Sequence record: PP445229.1
Strand: one strand, 5' to 3'
DNA: 64,000 nt
Source of the DNA: Escherichia phage EC.W2-6
In this document: positions 20,896 to 31,036 of the stretch, piece after piece
Position numbering within the stretch: the first letter of the stretch is position 1
Layout: each line of letters begins with the position of its first letter
Program-made: the position numbers and the translations under genes
Notes under the pieces: generated by a model
Database searches by the model: none
What the model was told of the DNA's origin: nothing
What the model saw: only the letters and a program-made list of their open reading frames with translations

Positions 20896-21075
20896 ATGGG
20901 TAAATTTGATTATCGTTCATATGATGAAAACTCCTCCAACCGTGAATCTCGTAAAGACCAAAAGATTAAACATCAACTGTTTGATCAGAGAACTGGTCGT
21001 ATTCCTCGTGAGGGTAAGGTGAGCCATCGTGTAAACAAACGAGTTTGGGAAGAAGCTGATTATGGCGAAGTCTGA
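20896..21075 (+). CDS. small basic hypothetical protein
   Basis: 59-aa ORF with AAGGA RBS; overlaps start of next gene. Confidence 0.25.
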   Translation: MGKFDYRSYDENSSNRESRKDQKIKHQLFDQRTGRIPREGKVSHRVNKRVWEEADYGEV

Positions 21076-21463
21076 GAAGACTCGCTGTAGTGGAATGTGG
21101 ACTGAAGCTCGTTACAACTCTTTCATCAAGTCAGGGATTCGTTCTCTGACTAGAAAGTGGAAGCCCATGTTCGATGCACTAGCAGACGCCAAGACAGAGC
21201 AGAAGATTAATCCAAAGACAGGAAGACTGGCAATGCACTTTAAATGTGCCATGTGTGGTTCTGACCACCCTGTAAAGGATATGGCTATTGACCACATAGA
21301 GCCTATAGTTCCCTTAGATCATGAAGCAACTTGGGATGAAATCATCTCTCGTGCTCTGTGTGAGAAAGAAGGTTTTCAGGTTCTATGTAAAGACCCTTGT
21401 CATAAGATTAAAACAAAAGAAGAGAATGATGCAAGAAAACAATTCAAAAAAGGAAATGAGTGA
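21062..21463 (+). CDS. HNH endonuclease
   Basis: CAMCGSDHP...DHIEPIV...LCKDPCHKIK HNH pattern. Confidence 0.65.
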   Translation: MAKSEKTRCSGMWTEARYNSFIKSGIRSLTRKWKPMFDALADAKTEQKINPKTGRLAMHFKCAMCGSDHPVKDMAIDHIEPIVPLDHEATWDEIISRALCEKEGFQVLCKDPCHKIKTKEENDARKQFKKGNE

Positions 21464-21683
21464 TGATCAAAAATCTACGCAACAAGTGCTTCGCTTTCGC
21501 TATCGCAATTGGAGAGGCGAGGTTGCTGACCGGTCCGTTATTCCACTCCGAACCTCCGTTGCTAGCTCCCGTTTTCATAACGGTGGCAAACCTTGTTGGA
21601 TTATGACAGCGATAGATGTAGAGAAAGATGAGATTCGAGAGTTCAAACTCTCTGACATTATTCAGTATTACGATTTAATCTAG
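21456..21683 (+). CDS. hypothetical protein
   Basis: Internal ATG of listed 21321 ORF overlapping HNH stop. Confidence 0.4.
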   Translation: MSDDQKSTQQVLRFRYRNWRGEVADRSVIPLRTSVASSRFHNGGKPCWIMTAIDVEKDEIREFKLSDIIQYYDLI

Positions 21684-22008
21684 GAACTGACATTATCACA
21701 CAAGCAGATAAAAATAAACTCTTCGACTTAATCCACGACCTATTAGAAGCTCAGAGCTTTATTGACAATGCCGATACTTGGGAGATGGAAGCAGCTGGAA
21801 AAGCTTTTGATGAAAGTGAAGAGAAACTTACTAATTTTATAAACACAATCTAGGAGGGTATATGAATGAAGAAGTTGTTATCCTTGGAAGTAAATCAGAT
21901 TGGTTCTATGGAGGCATCTCAGGATGCTTTGAAGATGAACATCCAGACTTCTGAAGAAAATTGGGATGTATGACGAATTTGATGGTTTTTAAAACTTAGA
22001 AACAAATA

Positions 22009-22041
22009 AAGCCCCTTCCTTTCGGTTGGGGCTTTTCTTTT
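22009..22041. terminator. bidirectional terminator between convergent blocks
   Basis: AAGCCCC...GGGGCTT hairpin flanked by A/T runs on both sides, at the junction of + and - blocks. Confidence 0.6.
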
Positions 22042-22042
22042 A

Positions 22043-25000
22043 TCACTCCTTAGGTCGAACTCTTACACGGAGTCTCGATTGACGCTTACTGCGTTCAAGC
22101 TTCTCTGACAATGAGCCACGTTTAATCTTAGGCTTCCCTTCGTCATTAAACTTCTCCAAGAACTGCAAGTACTCAGTACGATTTGTTGTCTTGTAAGAAG
22201 GAATCTTGATATCAGGGTTCTCTTCAATCACACGTCTCATCTTCGCTACATCATCCCTACCAAGCAACTTACTCTTAGCCTGTTCAGCTGTAGAACCAAA
22301 GATCTTCTCCAGTGCTCTGGATTTGTTACCACCTGCGGAAGAAGCACCAAGTTTAGCAATGGCAGAGTAATCATCAGCACTAAACCAAGCTACTGGATTA
22401 TCACCATACTTCTTCTTGTTTTCAGCAGCAGTCTGCAATGCACGTACAAAGCGACGGTTGTTACCAGCCTTATCTGCACCATGAACCCTGTCTAAAACTT
22501 CAGCCACACTAGCTAATTCATCCAAGCTCTTCCCGCTTAAGAAAGCTTTCTCTACTTTATCAGCAAAGACCTCTTCCTGTTGTTTAATGCTTTCCAAGAT
22601 ATCAGAATTTGCTTGAGATTTTTCATCATCAGGTAGAGCAGAACGAATCTTCTCCATCTCCAATTCTTCCTCTTGCAGTTTCTTAATATCAGAGTCAACC
22701 TTCTGAGCCTCCTCAATAGCCTTCCTAGTATCCGCATCCAAGTTATCAAGCTTACCTTCAGTATCTCCAGTAACCTTAACAATCTCTTTCTCGATAGGAG
22801 TCATTGATTCGTACTTCTTAGCAAACTTCTCAACATCAGCTTCGATACGAGAACGAGCATTCTGATGTTCAGTAGGAGTCATAGGTTTCTCAAGAAGTGC
22901 ATAACGGTTGTCCATATAGGAACCAGCAAACGCTTCAGCATCCTCTCTAGATATGCCCTTATCTTCCATAGTACGCATCAGGCGGCGATGAATGTCATCA
23001 CGTTGACGTTGTACTGCCATAAGATCATTCTCACGCTCTTGGGCCGCTTTAAGCTCTTCACTGCGCTTAACTCTCTTGTCCACATCAAACTTACGGTTCA
23101 TCTCTTCCGCTTGCTCGTACATCTTGTTCCACTTGGCCTGACGAGCATCTTCCTCTGCATCAGTTAAACGACGCTGACGATCAAGGTAATCTGACTCGGC
23201 GTTGTGGATACGTTCAATGTAACTACGGAACTTCTCTGGAGGAACTGGAGAGTTCTTGTCATGGTGAGCAGCCAACTGTTTCAATGTACGAGATTCCTGA
23301 GCCTCACGAACAGGTTTAGGTAAACCTTCCATCATCTTCTCAATCTCACTCTTCTGAGCTGCAATAGCCTCTAAAGTTTTACGTTCATTCTCAACAGCAG
23401 CCTTAGCATCTGAACGAGCCTGAGCCTTTTTCCTGAGGGTAGCAAGACGTTCTTCACGAGCCTGTAAGTGCTTAGCAGCAGCTTCGTACTGAGAGTTCTT
23501 GTTAGCTTTGTTGAAGGCATTCACTTCTCTGTTGTAGGTGTTAATAAACCCATCCCAAATATCCTTCATCTGACCAACTTCCAAAGCCTCTTCCCTACCA
23601 GCCTTCTCTGAAGATTTAAACTTCCCATCTACAAAGTCATTCATCAGCTTACGCATAGCATCTTTCTGAGCAGGACGTAAAGGTTCTGAATCAATCAAAG
23701 CATCAATCTCAGACTGAAGCTCTTTCTTCTGATCAACCAGTTTAGGAGCATCTTTCTTATCGAAAGCTTTGTTCTCTTCTAGAGCTTGTTGGTACAGTCT
23801 ATCAAACTCATCCTCACGCTGCTTCTGATACAACCTTTCAGCACGACGTTTCAGACTATCCAAGTTAGTTACGTTCCCACCTAAACCTTTCTCTTCAGCA
23901 CGTAATGCCTTAGTAGCAATGTCTTCTGGCAGACCACGTTCTTTAACCCATTCAGCAAAATTAGTTCGTACAGTGTTGTTCTTAGCAGTAGCAATACCTT
24001 GCTGAGAGGCCAGCTGGTTACGAGCCATTTCTTCATGACGTTCAGTGTTGATAGCATTATCTTCCTGACGAATACGACGCATCAGTTCCTTAGGATCGCC
24101 TTTATAAGCCAAGAAGTTTTCAGCAGTAGCTTTAGCTTTAGCAGCCTTAGAGTACAGAGAACGAGCAAAGCGTTCTGCACGATCTTTAGTAGCCTGACGA
24201 GCAGCACTAGACATAGCAGCTAAACGTTCTACACCACTTGCCGGTTTAACGTCCTGTACAGCTTCCTTAGGAGCTTTAGGAGCACGAGCAGGTAACGGCT
24301 CAGCTTTGACTGTTGGTTCCTCTACGGTTGGTTCTGGAGCCTGTGCGGCCTCTTCTTGAGCACGTTGCTGTTCCATTGCACGACGCTCCTCTAGAGGGTT
24401 ACGAGCAGGGAGAGGTTCAGCCTGTGGAGCTTGTTCGACCGGAGCTTCTTGAGCTGCTGCTGCCTCTTCTTCAGCTCGACGCTGTTCAGCCTGACGGATA
24501 GCGCGTCTTTGCGCAACTAAATCACGAGCTGTGAGAGGGGTTTCTTGAGGAGTAGAAGAAGGAAGATTTTCTTCCGTCACAGTACTAGAAGAAGGCTCCC
24601 GAACCGGTTCGGTTTCCACGTCATTTTGCGTCTTAAATTTAATGTCATCAACAACTGGTTCTTCTTCCATCTTAGCACGAGCTTCATCAGCAGTAGATTT
24701 AGCACGAGCAACTTCCAAATCACCACGAGCCAGAGAGCGGATAGCTTCACTATTAGACTCTTGTTGCTTAACACGTTGAGAACGGGCACGCTGAGAAGAG
24801 AAGCGATTCAGAGCATATTTAGCAGCACCGAGAGTGTTCATCACCAGACTAGGAGAAGAAGCCTCACGGAATCCATCATCAGTCAAGGAAGTCCAACCAC
24901 GATCTTGGTTGCTCATGAATTTAGCTGTATTGTTCAGAGTATAAGCATCTTGAATAGGATTAAAACCTTCAGGCATACCTTTCAGTTTCTTCAACCCACC

Positions 25001-26464
25001 AATAGCTTTCTTCATCTCTGGAGAAACATTATCAGCCATCTTCTGTAGTTCAGCAGCTTTCTCTACAAAGTTATTAAAGTCTTCGCCATCACGAGCTTTG
25101 AATCGATTTGCTTCATTGTAGAAAGTCTTGTAAGCATCAATGAAATCACGGTCGGCTTGTGTACGGTTCTTAATATCAATCGGACTACCAGTAAAATCAC
25201 CAGAAGCTCGGAGAGAGGTTAATTCACGATCTAGATTATCTAGAACATCTGTAAGAGCTTTCGTGTTGTCTTTGGTGTAGTCAGCCATTGCATCCTTCAT
25301 AGCAACAGCCTGCTTCTGGTTGTGCTCGTTATCAGCGAATGCTTTACCACGAGTCTTAGCAGGAGAAGCTAAAGGGTTGAGGCCCGGAATGTTGGAATGT
25401 TCTTTCTGAATGGAAGCAGCTTTCTCAGCACGAGCTTGGTCAGTATTAAGAATACGCTGAGCAGCAGGAGAGTCTACAGCAACAGCATCTGTAATACGGA
25501 ATCCATTCTCATCCAGAAGGTTCAGAGCAGAAGCAGCGTTAGCAGTTTCAGCTTTAGAGTAAGCTTCTTTCAGTTCATCAATATTCTTAGCACTACGAAT
25601 TAGTTCATCATCAGCAGCAATATCAGTCTTCGCATACTCTGGAGTGTTCTTGAAGACAGTAGAATCCGGACGGTTAATCAAACCATGAACCCCACCAACT
25701 GCACCACCGAATGCAGCACCCATAGCACCTTCTTCGATAGCACCTTCTAATACATTAGCAAAGGTTGTATCATCTCCATGCTTGTTCTGAGCTTCAGCAG
25801 CACCTACAAGAGCGCCACCTTTAGCACCAGCCACTGCGTTAGTAGCAACGTTCTGACCAATACGTCCAAGTGTGGACTCAGCTGTACCAACAGCGCCCGG
25901 AAGGATTCTCTGAGCCGCATAGTTAGCACCACCAACTAAGGCTGCATCTAGAATAGATTTATCTTCCCCCTCTTCAGGGGTTTGGTCTGCATATGCACGA
26001 CCTGTCTCACGACCTGCGATGATAGCAGCAGCAGCCAATGGGTTAGCAACAGTCATACCAATATCACCAGCAACGCCAGCATACTGACCTACAGTTTTAC
26101 CAATCCCATCCTCAATCTTATCCATACGTTCTTTCAGAAGATTCTGAGAGTTCTCTTGGATACGCTTACCATAACTAGTTTGTGCTCCAGCTAGATTCTC
26201 ACCAATCTCAACTAAACCACCAATACCTTTAGCAGCACTAGCTGCAATATTTGCACCACCAGATTGAAGAGCATTTGACACACCTTGAGCAAACTCACCT
26301 ATAGCACCACGTTCTTCTTGTTGTGGTTGTGCTACTGGCTGTTCCTCAGGAATAGAGCCACCTGCTGCCTTATATTGTTCTCTCATTTGAGCTTGTTGCT
26401 CCGGAGAGGCATTCAGATACGCAGGAGCTTTGGAAGCTTCTTCCCACGGTTTAATGTTAGCCAT
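22043..26464 (-). CDS. large internal virion/ejection protein (1473 aa)
   Basis: Gly/Ala-rich N-terminus, long coiled-coil, AEPLPAR repeats; AAGGAGA RBS before ATG at 26464; last gene of late operon. Confidence 0.6.
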   Translation of the reverse strand: MANIKPWEEASKAPAYLNASPEQQAQMREQYKAAGGSIPEEQPVAQPQQEERGAIGEFAQGVSNALQSGGANIAASAAKGIGGLVEIGENLAGAQTSYGKRIQENSQNLLKERMDKIEDGIGKTVGQYAGVAGDIGMTVANPLAAAAIIAGRETGRAYADQTPEEGEDKSILDAALVGGANYAAQRILPGAVGTAESTLGRIGQNVATNAVAGAKGGALVGAAEAQNKHGDDTTFANVLEGAIEEGAMGAAFGGAVGGVHGLINRPDSTVFKNTPEYAKTDIAADDELIRSAKNIDELKEAYSKAETANAASALNLLDENGFRITDAVAVDSPAAQRILNTDQARAEKAASIQKEHSNIPGLNPLASPAKTRGKAFADNEHNQKQAVAMKDAMADYTKDNTKALTDVLDNLDRELTSLRASGDFTGSPIDIKNRTQADRDFIDAYKTFYNEANRFKARDGEDFNNFVEKAAELQKMADNVSPEMKKAIGGLKKLKGMPEGFNPIQDAYTLNNTAKFMSNQDRGWTSLTDDGFREASSPSLVMNTLGAAKYALNRFSSQRARSQRVKQQESNSEAIRSLARGDLEVARAKSTADEARAKMEEEPVVDDIKFKTQNDVETEPVREPSSSTVTEENLPSSTPQETPLTARDLVAQRRAIRQAEQRRAEEEAAAAQEAPVEQAPQAEPLPARNPLEERRAMEQQRAQEEAAQAPEPTVEEPTVKAEPLPARAPKAPKEAVQDVKPASGVERLAAMSSAARQATKDRAERFARSLYSKAAKAKATAENFLAYKGDPKELMRRIRQEDNAINTERHEEMARNQLASQQGIATAKNNTVRTNFAEWVKERGLPEDIATKALRAEEKGLGGNVTNLDSLKRRAERLYQKQREDEFDRLYQQALEENKAFDKKDAPKLVDQKKELQSEIDALIDSEPLRPAQKDAMRKLMNDFVDGKFKSSEKAGREEALEVGQMKDIWDGFINTYNREVNAFNKANKNSQYEAAAKHLQAREERLATLRKKAQARSDAKAAVENERKTLEAIAAQKSEIEKMMEGLPKPVREAQESRTLKQLAAHHDKNSPVPPEKFRSYIERIHNAESDYLDRQRRLTDAEEDARQAKWNKMYEQAEEMNRKFDVDKRVKRSEELKAAQERENDLMAVQRQRDDIHRRLMRTMEDKGISREDAEAFAGSYMDNRYALLEKPMTPTEHQNARSRIEADVEKFAKKYESMTPIEKEIVKVTGDTEGKLDNLDADTRKAIEEAQKVDSDIKKLQEEELEMEKIRSALPDDEKSQANSDILESIKQQEEVFADKVEKAFLSGKSLDELASVAEVLDRVHGADKAGNNRRFVRALQTAAENKKKYGDNPVAWFSADDYSAIAKLGASSAGGNKSRALEKIFGSTAEQAKSKLLGRDDVAKMRRVIEENPDIKIPSYKTTNRTEYLQFLEKFNDEGKPKIKRGSLSEKLERSKRQSRLRVRVRPKE

Positions 26465-26531
26465 AACGTCTCCTTTTATAAATAAAAATGTCCTACCCCC
26501 TATATACATTATAGAAGGCAGGACTTAGGTC

Positions 26532-28187
26532 TTATTGAGTAAACCAGCTAGTGTCTTCGACAGCTGATAAAGCACCATTGAGCTTAGGATTGGTTGCTGC
26601 ACCACCAACTGCTTCTTCTGCTTGTTCAGAGAAAACACCTAGAGGGTCATAGAAACCACCAGAAGGGATTGCACGGTTAACCAATGCAGTAGCTCTCTTC
26701 TTATCCATACCAGAACCGATGTAAGCTTCAATCGTAGCTCTCTTAGCATCAGCAACACCTTTCATTGCAGAGGTGTGACCAACGTTAGCTTGCTTACGAG
26801 CATAAGCAAGAGCAGAATCAGTAGGACGCCATCCAGATTTCAGTGCAAACTTGTTGCCAACACGAACGAAGATTGATGGGTCTTCTGCAAAGTGCCCCAA
26901 GTCTTCTTCGGTAAGAGAACGAGTAGCACCGATTTCAGCCCTTGCGGAGTTCATGATAGCCTGCATGTAAGCAGAACGAGCTGTCTGATAGTCTTTATCC
27001 TTAACAGCCTTATCAGCCAAATCCAAGTCTTTGTTAGACTGGTTAAACAGGCCACCTTTCTCTGCCCACTGCTTAGCAACCGTACCTTCAGCTGTATTCT
27101 GAGCAAGACGAACTTCTTTCGGGTTAAAGTTAAAACTCTGAGCAGCTTGTTCAGCACGTTCAGCCTTAACCTTATCACGATAACCAATCAACTCTTTCTG
27201 ACGTTCAAAGTTCATGTTAGCTCTTTCTTCAGCGGCACGACGAGTTTCATCAGCACGCTCACGCATAGTTTGCTCTTGAATCTGTTGACGTCTATCCCAT
27301 TCAGCATTTTGTCGTTCTTCACGAGCAGCATACAACGCTTCTTTCTGAGCAGGGTCTACAGCTCTCATCTTCAGTAGAGATGGGTCTCCGTTAGCAATAG
27401 CAGCTGCAATCGAGTCTTGAGAGAAGCCTTGTTCAATCAGAGCATCACGGTTAGCTTCCAGTTGCTTCTTAGTCTCATCTTGATTAGCCATTCCCTGACC
27501 AATCTGGAAAGCTTCAATAGGAGACTTACCTGACATAATGGAAAGACCTACACCCATCAAACCTGTGTAGAAACTAGAGTTCTGATAGAATGGTTCTTTC
27601 TGTAGCTTGTTCCAAGCTTCCGAAGGGTCTTTAGCTTTCGCAACTTGCAAGATATCATTGTTAACACGTTCCTGATCTTTAGCACGAGTAGCAGCAGCCA
27701 TTCCATCACCAGTATCTTGTCCTTGAGCAAGAGTATTAATCACACCTTGTGCCTGTTCCACCTGAGAAGGAGTAAACTCCATAGGACCAGCTTCTAACGG
27801 TTTAGTAGGAGGTGTTACCGGAAGAGGGTCACTAGGCATAAGCCCAGCATCCTGTAAACCTTGATCAGTGGATAGGTTAGGGTTAGACGCTACAGGGGCC
27901 GGTGCTCCAATATCAATACCTTGAAGACTTGTAGGAGTTCCTTGATTCTGCTGTTCCATAAGACGTTGCTGGAATCCCGGATTAACCATAGCAGTCTGAT
28001 CTTCTTCTGCCTGAGAGACAAGACCCGCAAGAGATGAAGGTACAGCAGGACGTTGATACATAGAAATATCTGCTGTCTGAGTTGGTCTAGCCATATAAGG
28101 AGAGGCCGAAGCCGCTCCCGGATTAACACCATAGAAAGTATTTCTCGGGTCACGACTTCTGACCTGAGCGTAAGTTGTCTGTTGCAT
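26532..28187 (-). CDS. virion structural protein (551 aa)
   Basis: Late-operon ORF with AGGAGA RBS; coiled-coil central region. Confidence 0.5.
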   Translation of the reverse strand: MQQTTYAQVRSRDPRNTFYGVNPGAASASPYMARPTQTADISMYQRPAVPSSLAGLVSQAEEDQTAMVNPGFQQRLMEQQNQGTPTSLQGIDIGAPAPVASNPNLSTDQGLQDAGLMPSDPLPVTPPTKPLEAGPMEFTPSQVEQAQGVINTLAQGQDTGDGMAAATRAKDQERVNNDILQVAKAKDPSEAWNKLQKEPFYQNSSFYTGLMGVGLSIMSGKSPIEAFQIGQGMANQDETKKQLEANRDALIEQGFSQDSIAAAIANGDPSLLKMRAVDPAQKEALYAAREERQNAEWDRRQQIQEQTMRERADETRRAAEERANMNFERQKELIGYRDKVKAERAEQAAQSFNFNPKEVRLAQNTAEGTVAKQWAEKGGLFNQSNKDLDLADKAVKDKDYQTARSAYMQAIMNSARAEIGATRSLTEEDLGHFAEDPSIFVRVGNKFALKSGWRPTDSALAYARKQANVGHTSAMKGVADAKRATIEAYIGSGMDKKRATALVNRAIPSGGFYDPLGVFSEQAEEAVGGAATNPKLNGALSAVEDTSWFTQ

Positions 28188-28200
28188 ATTTATCTCCTAA

Positions 28201-29169
28201 TTAAGTACTAGCCAACCCACCGATTACACCCCCAGCTAATGCACCCCAAGGCCCAAAGGAAGAGCCAGCTGCTGCACCACTCATAGCTCCACCAAGGAAA
28301 CCACCTTTGCCACCAGATGTTTTAGTAGTTGTAGTTTGTCCGAGAGCACCGTTAAGTACACCTGCTGCACCGAGTTGGTTATTGATATCTTGCCATCCCC
28401 AATTAGCTGCGTTCTGAGCATTCTGGTAGGCATTATCATATTCATTCTGTTGTTGCTGTTGTTGCTGCAACCCTGCATTCCATTGATTCATTATTTGCTG
28501 TTGAGACAAATTAGCACCCTGCTGACCTAGGTTAGAAAGGTTAGAACCAATATTAGAAAGACCAGAGAGAGCAGCTGCCTGATTCTGTCTATTACCAGAG
28601 AGGATGCTTTCAGCTTGGCTAATAGCCGAGTTATAGGCACTATTGGTAATATCTGTTGCTTGGCCTTGCATCTGATTCAGAGCATCACCTTGGGCAAAAG
28701 ACTTAGCCATACGAGCACCTGAACCTTGTTGACCAGCAAACTGTTGAGCTAACTGAGGAAGAGCATTACGTGCCAAGTTCTGTTGAACCTGTTCATTATT
28801 AGCTGTAATGGCTGCTTGCACAGCGTCATCATCATACAGTTGACCAGCGAGAGCACCAATCTGCTCTCCAGTAATCCCACCTTGTCCAGAGAGGCTCTGA
28901 TAACCTTTATAGGCATTATCTAGATAACCCAAGCCTTGACCTGCTGCATCCATATACTGCTGTGAGAGAGTACCTAGAGCGCCAGATTGTGCTAGGTTGT
29001 TAAGTGCCTCTGTCTGATTGTTATTAAACCCTACATTGTCACGATAAACATAATCCCCTGAACTAGTATTACCAATCTGTTGGTTAAGCTGGTCAATATA
29101 CTGTTGAATGTATTCAGGGCGAATCATTTGGGAAGTAGTTTTACTACCCCCGCCTCCGAAAAGTCCCAT
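28201..29169 (-). CDS. Gln/Asn-rich virion protein with C-terminal Gly-zipper segment (paralog A)
   Basis: Starts MGLFGGGGSKTTSQ, Q/N-rich, ends GGAMSGAAAGSSFGPWGALAGGVIGGLAST; AAGGAG RBS. Confidence 0.5.
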   Translation of the reverse strand: MGLFGGGGSKTTSQMIRPEYIQQYIDQLNQQIGNTSSGDYVYRDNVGFNNNQTEALNNLAQSGALGTLSQQYMDAAGQGLGYLDNAYKGYQSLSGQGGITGEQIGALAGQLYDDDAVQAAITANNEQVQQNLARNALPQLAQQFAGQQGSGARMAKSFAQGDALNQMQGQATDITNSAYNSAISQAESILSGNRQNQAAALSGLSNIGSNLSNLGQQGANLSQQQIMNQWNAGLQQQQQQQNEYDNAYQNAQNAANWGWQDINNQLGAAGVLNGALGQTTTTKTSGGKGGFLGGAMSGAAAGSSFGPWGALAGGVIGGLAST

Positions 29170-29181
29170 ATCAAATCTCCT

Positions 29182-30234
29182 TTAGTTTGCTCCAAATGCC
29201 CCTAAGACACCACCTAAGATATTACTACCTGCTGTGGATAACCAGTTAGACTGACCTTTCTGTTGAGAAAGATTAGAACCACCAATCATAGGACCAGCCA
29301 TTCCAGATTGCCCACCTGAGTTGTTATAGGAACTCCAAGCATTCTGAGTCTGTTGATTAGGAGAGAAAGCACCCATACGACCTGCAATACCTAATCCAGT
29401 GATACCAGCACCTAGGAGCTGTTGTCCAGTATTAACCCCCGGAGCAGCATTCTTAATCGTGTACCCAGCCATTGGGCTTACACTATTTAATACATTAAGT
29501 TGGTTGTTAAGCTGATTCCACCTATACTGTTGAGAGCCAATAGCGTTCTGCCAATTAATATCAGCTTGAGCTTGGGCTTGTTGCTGTTGTAGATTACCAG
29601 CCATGAGTTGATTCTGGATAGCTTGTTGAGTTGCCTGAACACCTTGAGCACCAAGATTGAGATTCTGTCCAGCCAATCCTGACTGAGCACCAAGTAAGCC
29701 CCTCTGGAAGTTTTGGTCTTGTTGAAGAGCACTGATTCCCATATTCTTGCCACTGATAGTACGAGCTAAGTTTGTATTAGCACTGTTCAGAGCAGCACCT
29801 TGAGCAGCAGCTCTACGGAGAGAGCCTGAATCAGAACCATTTCCGAGGGATACATTGGAAGCTGCCTTACTAGTCGCTTGAGCAAGAGCTGAGTTATTCA
29901 ATCCTTTACTAAAGTTATTAACACCATCAGCAGTTAGACCACCACCATTGACAATATTCTGATACTGCTGTGCAAGAGAGTTTAATTGGTCCAACCCTTG
30001 CTGTGTACGAGGCGTGTACATATCAGCCAATTGCTTCTGAGTAGTAGAAGCTGCTAAGTTGTTCAGAGCACCCTGTTGGTTGCCATTAAACCCAGCCAGT
30101 TGTTGGGAGATGAATCCCGGATCGTTGTTCTGCATATTCTGAGCATTAGCAACAATCTGCTTCAGCAGGGCATCAACCTGAGAGGAAGGGGCCACTGTGG
30201 TTTTGCTAGAAGCTGATTTTCCAAATAAAGACAT
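29182..30234 (-). CDS. Gln/Asn-rich virion protein with C-terminal Gly-zipper segment (paralog B)
   Basis: Starts MSLFGKSASSKTT, Q/N-rich, ends AGSNILGGVLGAFGAN; AAGGAGG RBS. Confidence 0.5.
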   Translation of the reverse strand: MSLFGKSASSKTTVAPSSQVDALLKQIVANAQNMQNNDPGFISQQLAGFNGNQQGALNNLAASTTQKQLADMYTPRTQQGLDQLNSLAQQYQNIVNGGGLTADGVNNFSKGLNNSALAQATSKAASNVSLGNGSDSGSLRRAAAQGAALNSANTNLARTISGKNMGISALQQDQNFQRGLLGAQSGLAGQNLNLGAQGVQATQQAIQNQLMAGNLQQQQAQAQADINWQNAIGSQQYRWNQLNNQLNVLNSVSPMAGYTIKNAAPGVNTGQQLLGAGITGLGIAGRMGAFSPNQQTQNAWSSYNNSGGQSGMAGPMIGGSNLSQQKGQSNWLSTAGSNILGGVLGAFGAN

Positions 30235-30253
30235 AAGTCCTCCTTAAAGATTA

Positions 30254-31036
30254 TTACTTTACACCAATGCTAGCCAGACGTCTGAGCACTGCTTGTGTTT
30301 GTGGACTGTACTGAGAACCTGCTGCATGTGGTGCACTTGCCCTCTGAACTGTTTGAGAAGTGGGAGGTTTACCAGCAAGCATAGCAGCTACCCCTAATAC
30401 TGCATTACCAAAGTTCTGTTGAGGTTTCTGATTTTCGCCTTCCTGCACTTCATCAGAGTAAAACTCTACTGGATTTCCACCTAAAGCACCTGTCTTAGAA
30501 GCAGCAATCTCTGCCTGAGTTGGAGCTTGTGCGGCCTTCTCTCTATCTAACAAGTCAGGACTAAACTGATTGACTGGTTGAACAGCTTGCAAAGCTCCAA
30601 CAGGGTTAGCAATCTGAGAAGCTGCATCACCATAGAAAGGAAGAAAGTGTTTATTGTTCATGGAGTCAAGAGCTTGTGGAGTAAACCCCTTTTTACCAGC
30701 GAACATTTGCTTAGCTCCACCGATACCTTCTGAATAACCAACCATTGCTTTCTTAACATCACCATTAAAAGCTTTTAAGTTATCTCTTATGTAACGAGCG
30801 CCCATATCAATATTCTTTGCTGGGTCAAGTCTATCTTCTAGTTTGTAACCGTAATCTTTAGCCAACCCTTTACTGATCTGCATTAAACCTACAGGACCAG
30901 TTCCAGAGGCCACTGTAGGACGACCACTGGACTCTCTTTGGATGACAGCATGAATCAAAGCAGCAGGAATCCCATACTTCTTTGAAGCTTGCTGTACCAT
31001 TGGGTCTAGTTCTTCGATACCCATTCTGATTGCCAT
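30254..31036 (-). CDS. lytic transglycosylase (SLT domain) virion protein
   Basis: RESSGRP...GLMQIS SLT motif. Confidence 0.75.
   Translation of the reverse strand: MAIRMGIEELDPMVQQASKKYGIPAALIHAVIQRESSGRPTVASGTGPVGLMQISKGLAKDYGYKLEDRLDPAKNIDMGARYIRDNLKAFNGDVKKAMVGYSEGIGGAKQMFAGKKGFTPQALDSMNNKHFLPFYGDAASQIANPVGALQAVQPVNQFSPDLLDREKAAQAPTQAEIAASKTGALGGNPVEFYSDEVQEGENQKPQQNFGNAVLGVAAMLAGKPPTSQTVQRASAPHAAGSQYSPQTQAVLRRLASIGVK

What the first reader, a model, noticed from the sequence alone, without database searches (positions are those of the whole stretch)
22043..26464. 1473-aa coiled-coil internal protein with Gly/Ala-rich N-terminus and AEPLPAR repeats
This is the largest gene in the window and the last of the late operon. 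The N-terminal 300 aa are rich in small residues (membrane-active glycine-zipper style), followed by over 1000 aa of predicted coiled-coil with a duplicated AEPLPAR(N/A)P unit. It probably spans the envelope during DNA ejection, but no enzymatic domain is recognisable.
Basis: partly seen in the sequence, partly recalled or inferred. Interest (0 to 1): 0.35.

Follow-up and report, generated by a model that had tools for sequence, protein, structure and literature searches.

The report
Giant ejection protein of a Kuravirus
This 1473-residue gene is the known giant internal "ejection" protein of phiEco32/SU10-type coliphages, which leaves the phage head with the DNA, so the finding is real but mostly already described, and how the protein works is still unknown.

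Summary
The ORF is real: window 22043-26464, minus strand, 1473 aa, with a strong RBS. It is the largest gene in the window and the last gene of the late operon.

The window is a Kuravirus. The protein is 98.6% identical to SU10 gp24 and 98.8% to phiEco32 gp26. Published proteomics and cryo-EM on SU10 show that gp20-24 are in the virion and missing after genome release. The "internal/ejection protein" reading therefore already has experimental support.

- **Not one coiled coil.** The protein is all-alpha, about 50 helices of at most 84 residues. Heptad signal is marginal and prolines break the helical region into stretches of at most about 120 residues.
- **AEPLPAR is part of a larger repeat.** The two copies belong to a roughly 2.5-copy, ~40-residue tandem repeat. 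It sits in a hypervariable Pro/Glu-rich linker that carries a short basic motif in variable copy number across the family.

No enzyme domain, Pfam family or solved fold was found. There is no detectable homology to T7 gp16, LUZ24 gp50, or P22 gp16/gp20.

New here: the family is homologous to the giant last-late-gene virion protein of Grimontviridae. In phage 7-11 that gene is split into three ORFs.

Most likely role: the inner-membrane-proximal part of the ejectosome. This is inferred, not shown.

The parts
22043..26464 (-). CDS of the giant ejection protein (1473 aa, 162.9 kDa, pI 5.7; stop at 22043-22045). Orthologue of SU10 gp24 and phiEco32 gp26.
   Evidence: PHROG 14629 matched end to end
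26470..26475 (-). Ribosome-binding site AAGGAG, 5 nt upstream of the ATG at 26464
   Evidence: read directly
26303..26464 (-). Residues 1-54: conserved N-terminal peptide (W7, Y16, AGGxIP), then a short Pro/Gln-rich stretch
   Evidence: alignments A2 and A4
25670..26302 (-). Residues 55-265: Gly/Ala-rich helical module. Family-invariant residues include G130, D134, G155, Q161, A174, G178, A184, P189, A210, G213, G217, G221, A250, G253. The weakly hydrophobic segment 131-149 is conserved across the family.
24665..25669 (-). Residues 266-600: conserved all-alpha middle domain, the best-predicted part (pLDDT 80-94 for about 270-520). It contains the invariant G500-F501-x-P503 motif.
   Evidence: aligned with Grimontviridae giants at 99.65% probability
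24245..24664 (-). Residues 601-740: hypervariable Pro/Glu-rich linker (13% Pro, net charge -12). In relatives its length ranges from 30 to 436 residues.
24425..24547 (-). Repeat unit 1 (residues 640-680), core PLTARDLVAQRRA
24308..24424 (-). Repeat unit 2 (residues 681-719), core AEPLPARNPLEERRA; the first AEPLPAR
24254..24307 (-). Repeat unit 3, partial (residues 720-737), core AEPLPARAPKAPKE; the second AEPLPAR. It aligns with the last PDQxLxRxPKAPEK unit of distant relatives.
22565..24244 (-). Residues 741-1300: highly charged all-alpha region with 20 of the model's 26 helices, the longest at 963-1046. It includes an insertion of about 110 residues (roughly 975-1085) found only in the Kuravirus-like branch.
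22145..22564 (-). Residues 1301-1440: the most conserved region between genera (88-90% identity). Motifs: AEKAF, YxDNPxxW(F/L)SxxD, GxxK.
   Evidence: matches the 7-11 408-aa ORF (88%) and Grimontviridae giants (75.6%)
22046..22144 (-). Residues 1441-1473: basic C-terminal tail (13 K/R in 33 residues; ...KRQSRLRVRVRPKE). A basic (R/K)V(R/K)(V/I)(R/K) end is conserved in the close family but absent from Grimontviridae giants.
22000..22035 (-). Stem-loop AAAGCCCC...GGGGCUUU followed by a U run, starting 8 nt after the stop codon. It is flanked by an A run, so it could act in both directions. Likely the end of the late operon.
   Evidence: -17.7 kcal/mol, z -2.4; SU10 has an annotated terminator at the same place. 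My strict pattern scan missed it.
26532..31036 (-). The rest of the ejection-protein module, directly upstream: SLT transglycosylase (30254-31036, SU10 gp20), two paralogous 'DNA ejection proteins' (29182-30234 and 28201-29169, gp21 and gp22), and a 551-aa protein (26532-28187, gp23).
   Evidence: PMC9509320

Best explanation
**What it is.** This is the Kuravirus giant ejection protein, the orthologue of SU10 gp24 and phiEco32 gp26. It is packaged inside the prolate head and expelled through the tail at infection together with gp20-23. That much is shown for the orthologue.

**How it is built.** It has two conserved all-alpha modules: an N-module (residues 1-600) and a C-module (residues 741-1473). 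A disordered, hypervariable Pro/Glu-rich tether joins them and carries a short repeated basic motif.

**Most likely role (inferred).** It probably forms the innermost part of the trans-envelope DNA conduit, proximal to the inner membrane. In position, though not in sequence, it corresponds to T7 gp16, Pa223 gp53 and P22 gp16. The proposed division of labour is:
- gp20 cuts peptidoglycan.
- gp21/22 and gp23 build the outer and periplasmic parts.
- The conserved Gly/Ala-rich, weakly hydrophobic helices of the gp24 N-module refold into or onto the cytoplasmic membrane.
- The charged C-module with its basic tail lies on the DNA or cytoplasmic side.

**Confidence by step.** Identity about 0.95. Ejected virion protein about 0.9. 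Inner-membrane conduit role about 0.4.
For: **Identity**
- The gene is 100% identical in nucleotide sequence to Escherichia phages EC.W14-3 and EC.W8-1.
- The protein is 98.6-98.8% identical to SU10 gp24 and phiEco32 gp26.
- It matches PHROG 14629 end to end.

**Ejection, from published experiments on the orthologue**
- SU10 gp24, 163 kDa, was seen in virions with 73% coverage and 116 peptides (PMC4281155).
- gp20-24 are present in virions and absent from genome-release intermediates (PMC9509320).

**Position**
- The order needle, DUF6453, SLT, two ~330-aa paralogues, a ~560-aa protein, then the giant, followed by convergent early genes, is kept in relatives only 25-30% identical.
- The giant is likewise the last late gene, preceded by a 550-570-aa protein and an annotated DNA injection protein, in Grimontviridae.
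- The same gene order, ejection genes directly after the needle with the largest last, is seen in P22. LUZ24 has the corresponding small, ~500-aa and ~1050-aa genes in that order, and the Pa223 preprint describes this arrangement.

**Architecture**
- Both modules are all-alpha.
- The Gly/Ala pattern is invariant, and the hydrophobic segment 131-149 is conserved, scoring 1.3-1.65 on the Kyte-Doolittle scale in every member tested.
- The linker varies from 30 to 436 residues, which fits a tether better than a ruler.
- In phage 7-11 the gene is split at the module borders into 650-, 488- and 408-aa ORFs. This suggests the modules can work as separate polypeptides.
Against: - No segment reaches classical transmembrane hydrophobicity in the window's protein, and no Gly-zipper or membrane family matches.
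- There is no detectable homology to T7 gp16 (0.6%), LUZ24 gp50 (20%), P22 gp16 (0.8%) or P22 gp20 (1%). The analogy therefore rests on gene order and size alone.
- The models have low pTM (0.45 and 0.31), so the tertiary arrangement is unreliable.
- The SU10 cryo-EM work resolved no density for this protein and did not localise it after ejection.
- The basic tail is not conserved in Grimontviridae.
Confidence: 0.55

Rival explanations
1. The protein is an ejected cargo or effector rather than a channel component. Like N4 vRNAP, P1 DarB-type polyvalent proteins or T4 internal proteins, it would enter the cytoplasm with the leading DNA end. There it would protect the DNA, or dock to a host factor through its repeated linker motif and basic tail.
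For: - No transmembrane-grade segment is present in the window's protein.
- The central region is a hot spot for change. Motif copy number runs from 0 to about 7, and extra globular inserts occur in P0142 and P0144.
- In phage 7-11 the middle ORF carries a domain shared with PHROG 15406, a 2789-position giant 'DNA methyltransferase' family.
- Weak BFVD matches include several 'large polyvalent protein associated domain' proteins.
- The C-terminal tail is basic.
Against: - The window's own protein has no recognisable effector or enzymatic domain.
- The BFVD polyvalent-protein matches are not significant (E of 0.35 or more).
- Gene order places it where the channel-forming largest subunit sits in P22 and LUZ24, and the T7 region fetched shows the same order.
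- The two conserved modules, not the variable centre, carry the selection.
Confidence: 0.25
2. The protein is mainly an internal head component. It would organise or counter-balance the packaged DNA, or help set the length of the prolate C3 capsid, and it would leave the head only passively.
For: - Among cultured phages, sequence searches found the family only in the phiEco32-like and 7-11-like phages (Gordonclarkvirinae and Grimontviridae). The Privateer paper describes these as prolate C3 podophages. The one further candidate, a Foldseek structural match, is Vibrio phage Vp_R1, which has the same morphology.
- The protein is very large, helical, and yielded the most peptides of any protein in the SU10 virion table.
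Against: - The protein's length varies from 1086 to 1754 residues, and the linker from 30 to 436.
- In 7-11, which has an unusually elongated head, the gene is split into three ORFs. That is hard to reconcile with a ruler.
- Co-occurrence with C3 morphology is explained equally well by shared ancestry of the whole structural module.
- It sits in the ejection-protein block next to the SLT enzyme.
Confidence: 0.1
3. The protein is a tape-measure protein of a long-tailed phage.
For: Its size, helical content and Gly/Ala-rich segments superficially resemble tape measures. A few tape-measure entries appear among the non-significant BFVD matches.
Against: - There is no tail tube, tail chaperone or baseplate gene in the late block.
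- SU10 is a short-tailed phage whose structure has been solved by cryo-EM (PMC9509320).
- The protein is lost on genome release together with the SLT enzyme.
Confidence: 0.01

Closest known systems
SU10 gp24 / phiEco32 gp26 (PHROG 14629), Gordonclarkvirinae
   Same: Same protein: 98.6-98.8% identical, same length, same position. For SU10 it is experimentally a virion protein that is lost on genome release.
   Different: Nothing of substance. Public records call it hypothetical, or misname it by composition as 'TolA', 'erythrocyte binding protein', 'liver stage antigen' or 'nuclear pore complex'.
Giant last-late-gene virion protein of Grimontviridae (PHROG 32895: Privateer gp23, Cronobacter A24, Aeromonas BUCT695; split in Salmonella phage 7-11)
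   Same: - Homologous N-module: hhalign 99.65%, E 5e-25, 503 columns.
- C-terminal YPxNPxxWxSxxD region: 75-88% probability.
- Same position and a Pro/Glu-rich central linker with a repeated basic motif.
- Privateer's protein is verified in virions by mass spectrometry.
   Different: - About 20% identity; not found by BLAST or HMMER with a single sequence.
- No basic C-terminal tail.
- Split into three ORFs in 7-11, whose middle ORF has an extra domain shared with PHROG 15406.
T7 gp16 (internal virion protein D) and its positional equivalents Pa223 gp53 / LUZ24 gp50
   Same: The largest ejection protein, encoded last after a small and a medium ejection protein, packaged in the head and ejected. 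The Pa223 preprint describes gp16 as spanning the inner membrane after ejection (gene orders).
P22 gp16 / gp20 ejection proteins
   Same: The order tail needle, ejection proteins, end of late operon, with the largest last. They are invisible by cryo-EM inside the head (Pa223 preprint).
   Different: Much smaller (609 and 471 aa) and no detectable homology.
TonB / TolA periplasm-spanning spacers
   Same: Composition only: a Pro/Glu(Lys)-rich segment and Ala/Glu/Lys-rich helices. This explains the 'TolA protein' label on phage ES17. The resemblance to TonB and TolA is from my own knowledge.
   Different: No homology to any Pfam or NCBIfam family. The linker length is not conserved (30-436 residues), so it is not a fixed-length spacer.

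Membership tests
SU10 gp24 / phiEco32 gp26 family (PHROG 14629) | Full-length colinear sequence match | tested here: met
   PHROG 14629 matched 1-1473 of 1473 positions, 3269 bits. 98.6-98.8% identity to SU10 and phiEco32.
SU10 gp24 / phiEco32 gp26 family (PHROG 14629) | Last gene of the late operon, after SLT, two paralogues and a ~550-aa protein | tested here: met
   also kept in distant relatives
SU10 gp24 / phiEco32 gp26 family (PHROG 14629) | Present in virions and lost on genome release | not testable with these tools
   Published for SU10 only (PMC4281155; PMC9509320)
T7 gp16-type internal virion protein D / inner-membrane ejectosome subunit | Sequence or profile homology to gp16 or its Bruynoghevirus counterpart | tested here: not met
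   hhalign probability 0.6% against T7 gp16 and 20% against LUZ24 gp50
T7 gp16-type internal virion protein D / inner-membrane ejectosome subunit | N-terminal lytic transglycosylase domain in the same chain | tested here: not met
   No SLT or any other Pfam domain in the protein. SLT is the separate 260-aa gene at 30254-31036.
T7 gp16-type internal virion protein D / inner-membrane ejectosome subunit | Largest ejection protein, encoded last in the ejection-gene block | tested here: met
T7 gp16-type internal virion protein D / inner-membrane ejectosome subunit | Inserts in the cytoplasmic membrane after ejection | not testable with these tools
   Only weak hydrophobicity (maximum 1.49). No experiment exists.
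Grimontviridae giant virion protein (PHROG 32895) | Profile-profile homology over the N-module | tested here: met
   99.65%, E 5.4e-25, 503 columns
Grimontviridae giant virion protein (PHROG 32895) | Direct match to the PHROG 32895 model | tested here: not met
   None of 8 family members matched any PHROG other than 14629 at E of 0.001 or better. The relation is at superfamily level only.
Canonical long coiled coil | Sustained heptad periodicity over hundreds of residues without helix breakers | tested here: not met
   The best-register heptad score exceeds shuffles only marginally, in bins 901-1100 and 1201-1300. Prolines occur at least every ~120 residues. AlphaFold2 gives about 26 separate helices in 740-1473. 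The heptad test was home-made, not COILS or Marcoil.
Glycine-zipper membrane motifs (Pfam Gly-zipper families) | Match to a Gly-zipper family, or transmembrane-grade hydrophobic helices carrying GxxxG | tested here: not met
   No Pfam match at E of 0.01 or better or 0.1 across 8 members. Maximum Kyte-Doolittle score over 19 residues is 1.49. Small-xxx-small patterns are present and conserved.
Tape-measure protein | Encoded between tail-chaperone and distal-tail genes of a long-tailed phage that has a tail tube | tested here: not met
   No tube, chaperone or baseplate genes; the gene set is that of a podovirus
Polyvalent (DarB-like) delivered proteins | Enzymatic or LPD effector domains strung along a giant virion protein | tested here: not met
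   None in the window's protein. Only the 7-11 middle ORF shares a domain with PHROG 15406.

The most novel reading that the evidence does not exclude
The hypervariable central linker is a functional array rather than a passive tether. Its short motif appears as ELVAQRRA or PLPARxP in Kuravirus, DQxLVRxPRRP in distant relatives, and AAMSRKPRRP or DLASKPERK in Grimontviridae. The motif is kept across a superfamily only about 20% identical, while copy number (0 to about 7) and spacers change freely. It could be a multivalent docking site for a host factor, for peptidoglycan or for DNA. The same region would be the slot where relatives insert extra domains, making the protein a polyvalent-like delivery scaffold as well as a channel part.
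Probability: 0.15. Interest if true: 0.55.

Novelty: already known. Interest (0 to 1): 0.25.

Why it matters
How short-tailed phages carry DNA across two membranes is understood structurally only for T7-like, P22-like and N4-like phages. For Kuraviruses, several of which are being isolated for therapeutic or biocontrol use, the tail rearrangement is solved, but the five ejection proteins have not been seen.

The largest of them has no detectable relative among the T7, LUZ24 and P22 ejection proteins compared here. It therefore represents an independent, or unrecognisably diverged, solution.

The domain map, the link to the Grimontviridae giants, and the natural three-way split in phage 7-11 give concrete construct boundaries for expression, cryo-ET labelling and genetics. 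As a genome-scan finding it remains ordinary: a correctly spotted, already catalogued virion protein.

Tried and rejected
**Searches that found nothing**
- Pfam, NCBIfam and PHROG annotation gave nothing beyond the protein's own family of unknown function.
- PDB sequence and profile searches gave only chance-level hits.
- Profile comparisons with T7 gp16, LUZ24 gp50 and P22 gp16/gp20 were negative.
- Comparison with the neighbouring gp23 homologue showed no relation.
- TRF on the DNA found no tandem repeat in the linker, so the repeat is visible only at protein level. Self-BLAST returned only the identity hit, so I used windowed Smith-Waterman alignment against shuffles instead.
- The pattern scan for terminators missed the hairpin after the stop codon. 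Folding found it.

**Searches of limited value**
- The first homology search was saturated by near-identical Kuravirus proteins.
- A profile search with the C-terminal domain returned one fragment and not even the family itself. I treat it as uninformative, not as evidence of absence.
- Savalia et al. 2008 on phiEco32 proteomics could not be read because it is not held.

**Ideas considered and dropped**
- A weak internal duplication, 872-940 against 1097-1162 (z about 3.5-3.9), was not pursued.
- A stable single alpha-helix reading of the long charged helices seems unlikely from composition: D+E+K+R+Q is at most 50% per 100 residues.

Full report
**1. The observation**

ORF listing gives one long ORF at 22043..26509 on the minus strand. 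The ATG at 26464 is preceded by AAGGAG with a 5-nt spacer. The N-terminus from that start (MANIKPWEE...) is conserved in relatives down to about 25% identity. The 1473-aa reading is therefore correct.

It is the largest ORF in the window; the next is 1005 aa. It is also the last gene of the minus-strand block. A GC-rich hairpin with a U run lies at 22000-22035, starting 8 nt after the stop. SU10 has an annotated terminator at the same place, and the genes beyond it are convergent.

Composition supports a Gly/Ala-rich N-terminus: residues 55-265 are 18% Gly and 19% Ala. AEPLPAR occurs at residues 682 and 721.

**2. What the window is**

The gene is 100% identical in nucleotide sequence to Escherichia phages EC.W14-3 and EC.W8-1. 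It is found in 98 phage records, all Escherichia or Shigella phages; those with a taxonomy line that I checked are Gordonclarkvirinae. The protein is 98.8% identical to phiEco32 gp26 and 98.6% to SU10 gp24.

The surrounding late genes are terminase, portal, scaffold, capsid, Ig decoration, adaptor, two long fibres, holin/endolysin, tail protein, nozzle, needle, DUF6453, SLT, two paralogous 'DNA ejection proteins' and a 551-aa protein. There is no tail tube and no tape measure.

**3. What is already published**

SU10 virion proteomics found gp24 at 163 kDa with 73% coverage and 116 peptides, the most of any protein (PMC4281155). My calculated mass is 162.9 kDa, so the protein appears unprocessed.

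The SU10 cryo-EM paper states that gp20-24 are present in virions and absent from genome-release intermediates, and therefore calls them ejection proteins. No density could be assigned to them (PMC9509320). Its supplementary table lists ORF 24, 1473 residues, as in the virion and detected by MS.

**4. Anatomy**

*Finding relatives.* A HMMER scan of 1.84 billion representatives with residues 1-620 found only 13 proteins. Seven of them are full-length relatives of 1086-1754 aa at 29-68% identity. None of these is in a cultured phage other than the 98 coliphages. A profile search added more relatives from uncultured 80-90-kb contigs. Those contigs keep the same gene order.

*Regions defined by the alignments:*
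- Residues 1-54: a conserved N-terminal peptide.
- Residues 55-265: a Gly/Ala-rich module with many invariant small residues, plus D134, Q161 and P189.
- Residues 266-600: a middle domain containing the invariant GFxP motif.
- Residues 601-740: a hypervariable Pro/Glu-rich linker.
- Residues 741-1300: a charged helical region. The Kuravirus-like branch has an insertion of about 110 residues here.
- Residues 1301-1440: the region most conserved between genera, at 88-90% identity.
- Residues 1441-1473: a basic tail.

*Predicted structure.* AlphaFold2 with a 16-sequence alignment predicts both halves as purely alpha-helical.
- Residues 1-620: pLDDT 66.8, pTM 0.45, 24 helices.
- Residues 740-1473: pLDDT 73.8, pTM 0.31, 26 helices, the longest 84 residues.

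*Coiled-coil test.* A home-made heptad test against block shuffles gives only marginal signal, and prolines occur at least every ~120 residues. 'Helix-rich and charged' is right. 'A coiled coil of more than 1000 residues' is not.

*Hydrophobicity.* The most hydrophobic segment, 131-149, scores 1.49 on the Kyte-Doolittle scale. It is conserved at 1.3-1.65 in all relatives tested. This is borderline, not a classical transmembrane helix.

**5. The AEPLPAR repeat**

Windowed Smith-Waterman alignment against shuffles shows a tandem of units 640-680, 681-719 and a partial 720-737 (z = 6-7). It is invisible at DNA level.

Across the family the linker ranges from 30 to 436 residues, with 10-25% Pro. 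It carries a short motif in variable copy number:
- In the window: TARDLVAQRRA, PLPARNPLEERRA and PLPARAPKAPKE.
- In SU7: two full TAR(D/E)LVAQRRA copies.
- In Bas94 (37 residues shorter) and LAMP (same shorter match): one unit fewer.
- In P0121 and P0122: three or more copies.
- In distant relatives: three to five copies of (P/V)DQxLVRxPRRP.
- Intermediate forms such as TAAELARAPRRP link the two types.

Grimontviridae giants have the same arrangement, with AAMSRKPRRP three times in BUCT695 and DLASKPERK three times in Privateer.

The two AEPLPAR copies are therefore degenerate members of a conserved motif array. Its function is unexplained.

**6. Wider relatives**

Foldseek against BFVD found the family itself and, at E = 2e-4, a giant protein of Vibrio phage Vp_R1, another C3 podophage.

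Following that lead, phage 7-11 shows no giant gene at this position. It has ORFs of 650, 488 and 408 aa instead. Privateer, Cronobacter A24 and Aeromonas BUCT695 have giants of 1529, 1306 and 1385 aa as the last late gene. Privateer's is verified in virions by mass spectrometry.

Profile-profile comparison gave these results:
- The two families align at 99.65% probability (E 5.4e-25, 503 columns, gp24 residues 94-670).
- The C-terminal region matches the 7-11 408-aa ORF at 88%.
- The C-terminal region matches the Grimontviridae giants at 75.6%.

The three 7-11 ORFs map colinearly onto PHROG 32895. So 7-11 carries a split version of the gene, cut roughly at the module borders.

The 7-11 middle ORF also shares a domain with PHROG 15406, a giant 'DNA methyltransferase' family. 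No such domain exists in the window's protein.

**7. Comparison with known ejection proteins**

The Pa223 preprint sets out the general scheme of outer-membrane channel, periplasmic tunnel and inner-membrane complex, with the largest protein encoded last. Gene order here fits that scheme.

The protein therefore plausibly works like a gp16-type subunit, but it cannot be filed as a member of that family.

**8. Verdict**

- **Shown, by literature on the orthologue:** it is a virion protein that leaves the head at genome release.
- **Shown here:** the start site, the domain map, the repeat structure, the family limits, the superfamily link to Grimontviridae, the split in 7-11, and the absence of enzymatic domains and of detectable homology to T7, LUZ24 and P22 ejection proteins.
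- **Inferred:** it forms the inner-membrane-proximal part of the DNA conduit. The Gly/Ala-rich N-module would be the membrane-active part, the linker a flexible tether, and the C-module with its basic tail would lie on the DNA or cytoplasmic side.
- **Main rival:** it is a delivered cargo or scaffold protein rather than a channel part.

The finding is a correct spot of an already catalogued protein of unknown mechanism. Interest is low to moderate.

Noticed in passing
L013 (Salmonella phage 7-11, HM997019) 24208-29208: The giant gene is split into three ORFs of 650, 488 and 408 aa, with a 41-aa ORF and short gaps between them. They map colinearly onto PHROG 32895 (positions 14-688, 776-1256, 1307-1723). 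It is unclear whether the split is real or comes from frameshifts or sequencing errors.
   Followed up: partly
L013 26397-27863 (7-11 middle ORF, residues 76-289): A domain that looks globular is shared with PHROG 15406, a 2789-position 'DNA methyltransferase' giant family (E 4.5e-26). It has no Pfam match and no counterpart in the window's protein.
   Followed up: no
window 28201-29169 and 29182-30234 (-): The two 'DNA ejection proteins' (SU10 gp22 and gp21) are paralogues: 30% identical, E 9e-12. Both are Gly/Gln/Asn-rich and both match PHROG 4287.
   Followed up: partly
L010 6916-7302 (uncultured relative, Logan SRR23468710): A 128-aa Endonuclease_7 (PF02945) gene sits between the two paralogous ejection-protein genes. 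The window and L008 lack it. It is probably a homing endonuclease insertion.
   Followed up: no
window 21062-21463 (+): An ORF annotated as HNH endonuclease in relatives (Bas91_0024, SU10 gp027) lies near the convergent junction. A 120-aa ORF overlaps it at 21321-21683.
   Followed up: no
linkers of P0142 and P0144: Two family members carry inserts of about 80-110 residues that are neither repetitive nor Pro/Glu-rich inside the linker. This suggests the linker is an insertion hot spot.
   Followed up: no
window 22565-24244 (-), residues 872-940 against 1097-1162: There is a weak internal similarity between two helical segments (z 3.4-3.9 against shuffles). It may be an old duplication within the C-module.
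   Followed up: no
(tool behaviour): The word-indexed profile search with the C-terminal domain alignment returned a single 116-aa fragment and none of the known family members. The fragment is labelled Herbiconiux daphne, sits on a 723-bp contig, and is a P0131-like C-terminus. The result should not be read as absence.
   Followed up: partly
public records: Orthologues carry composition-driven misannotations: 'TolA protein' (ES17), 'erythrocyte binding protein 1' (172-1), 'putative liver stage antigen' (ECBP2), 'type 3 domain protein precursor' (MLP3) and 'Nuclear Pore Complex' (SU10 supplementary table).
   Followed up: yes
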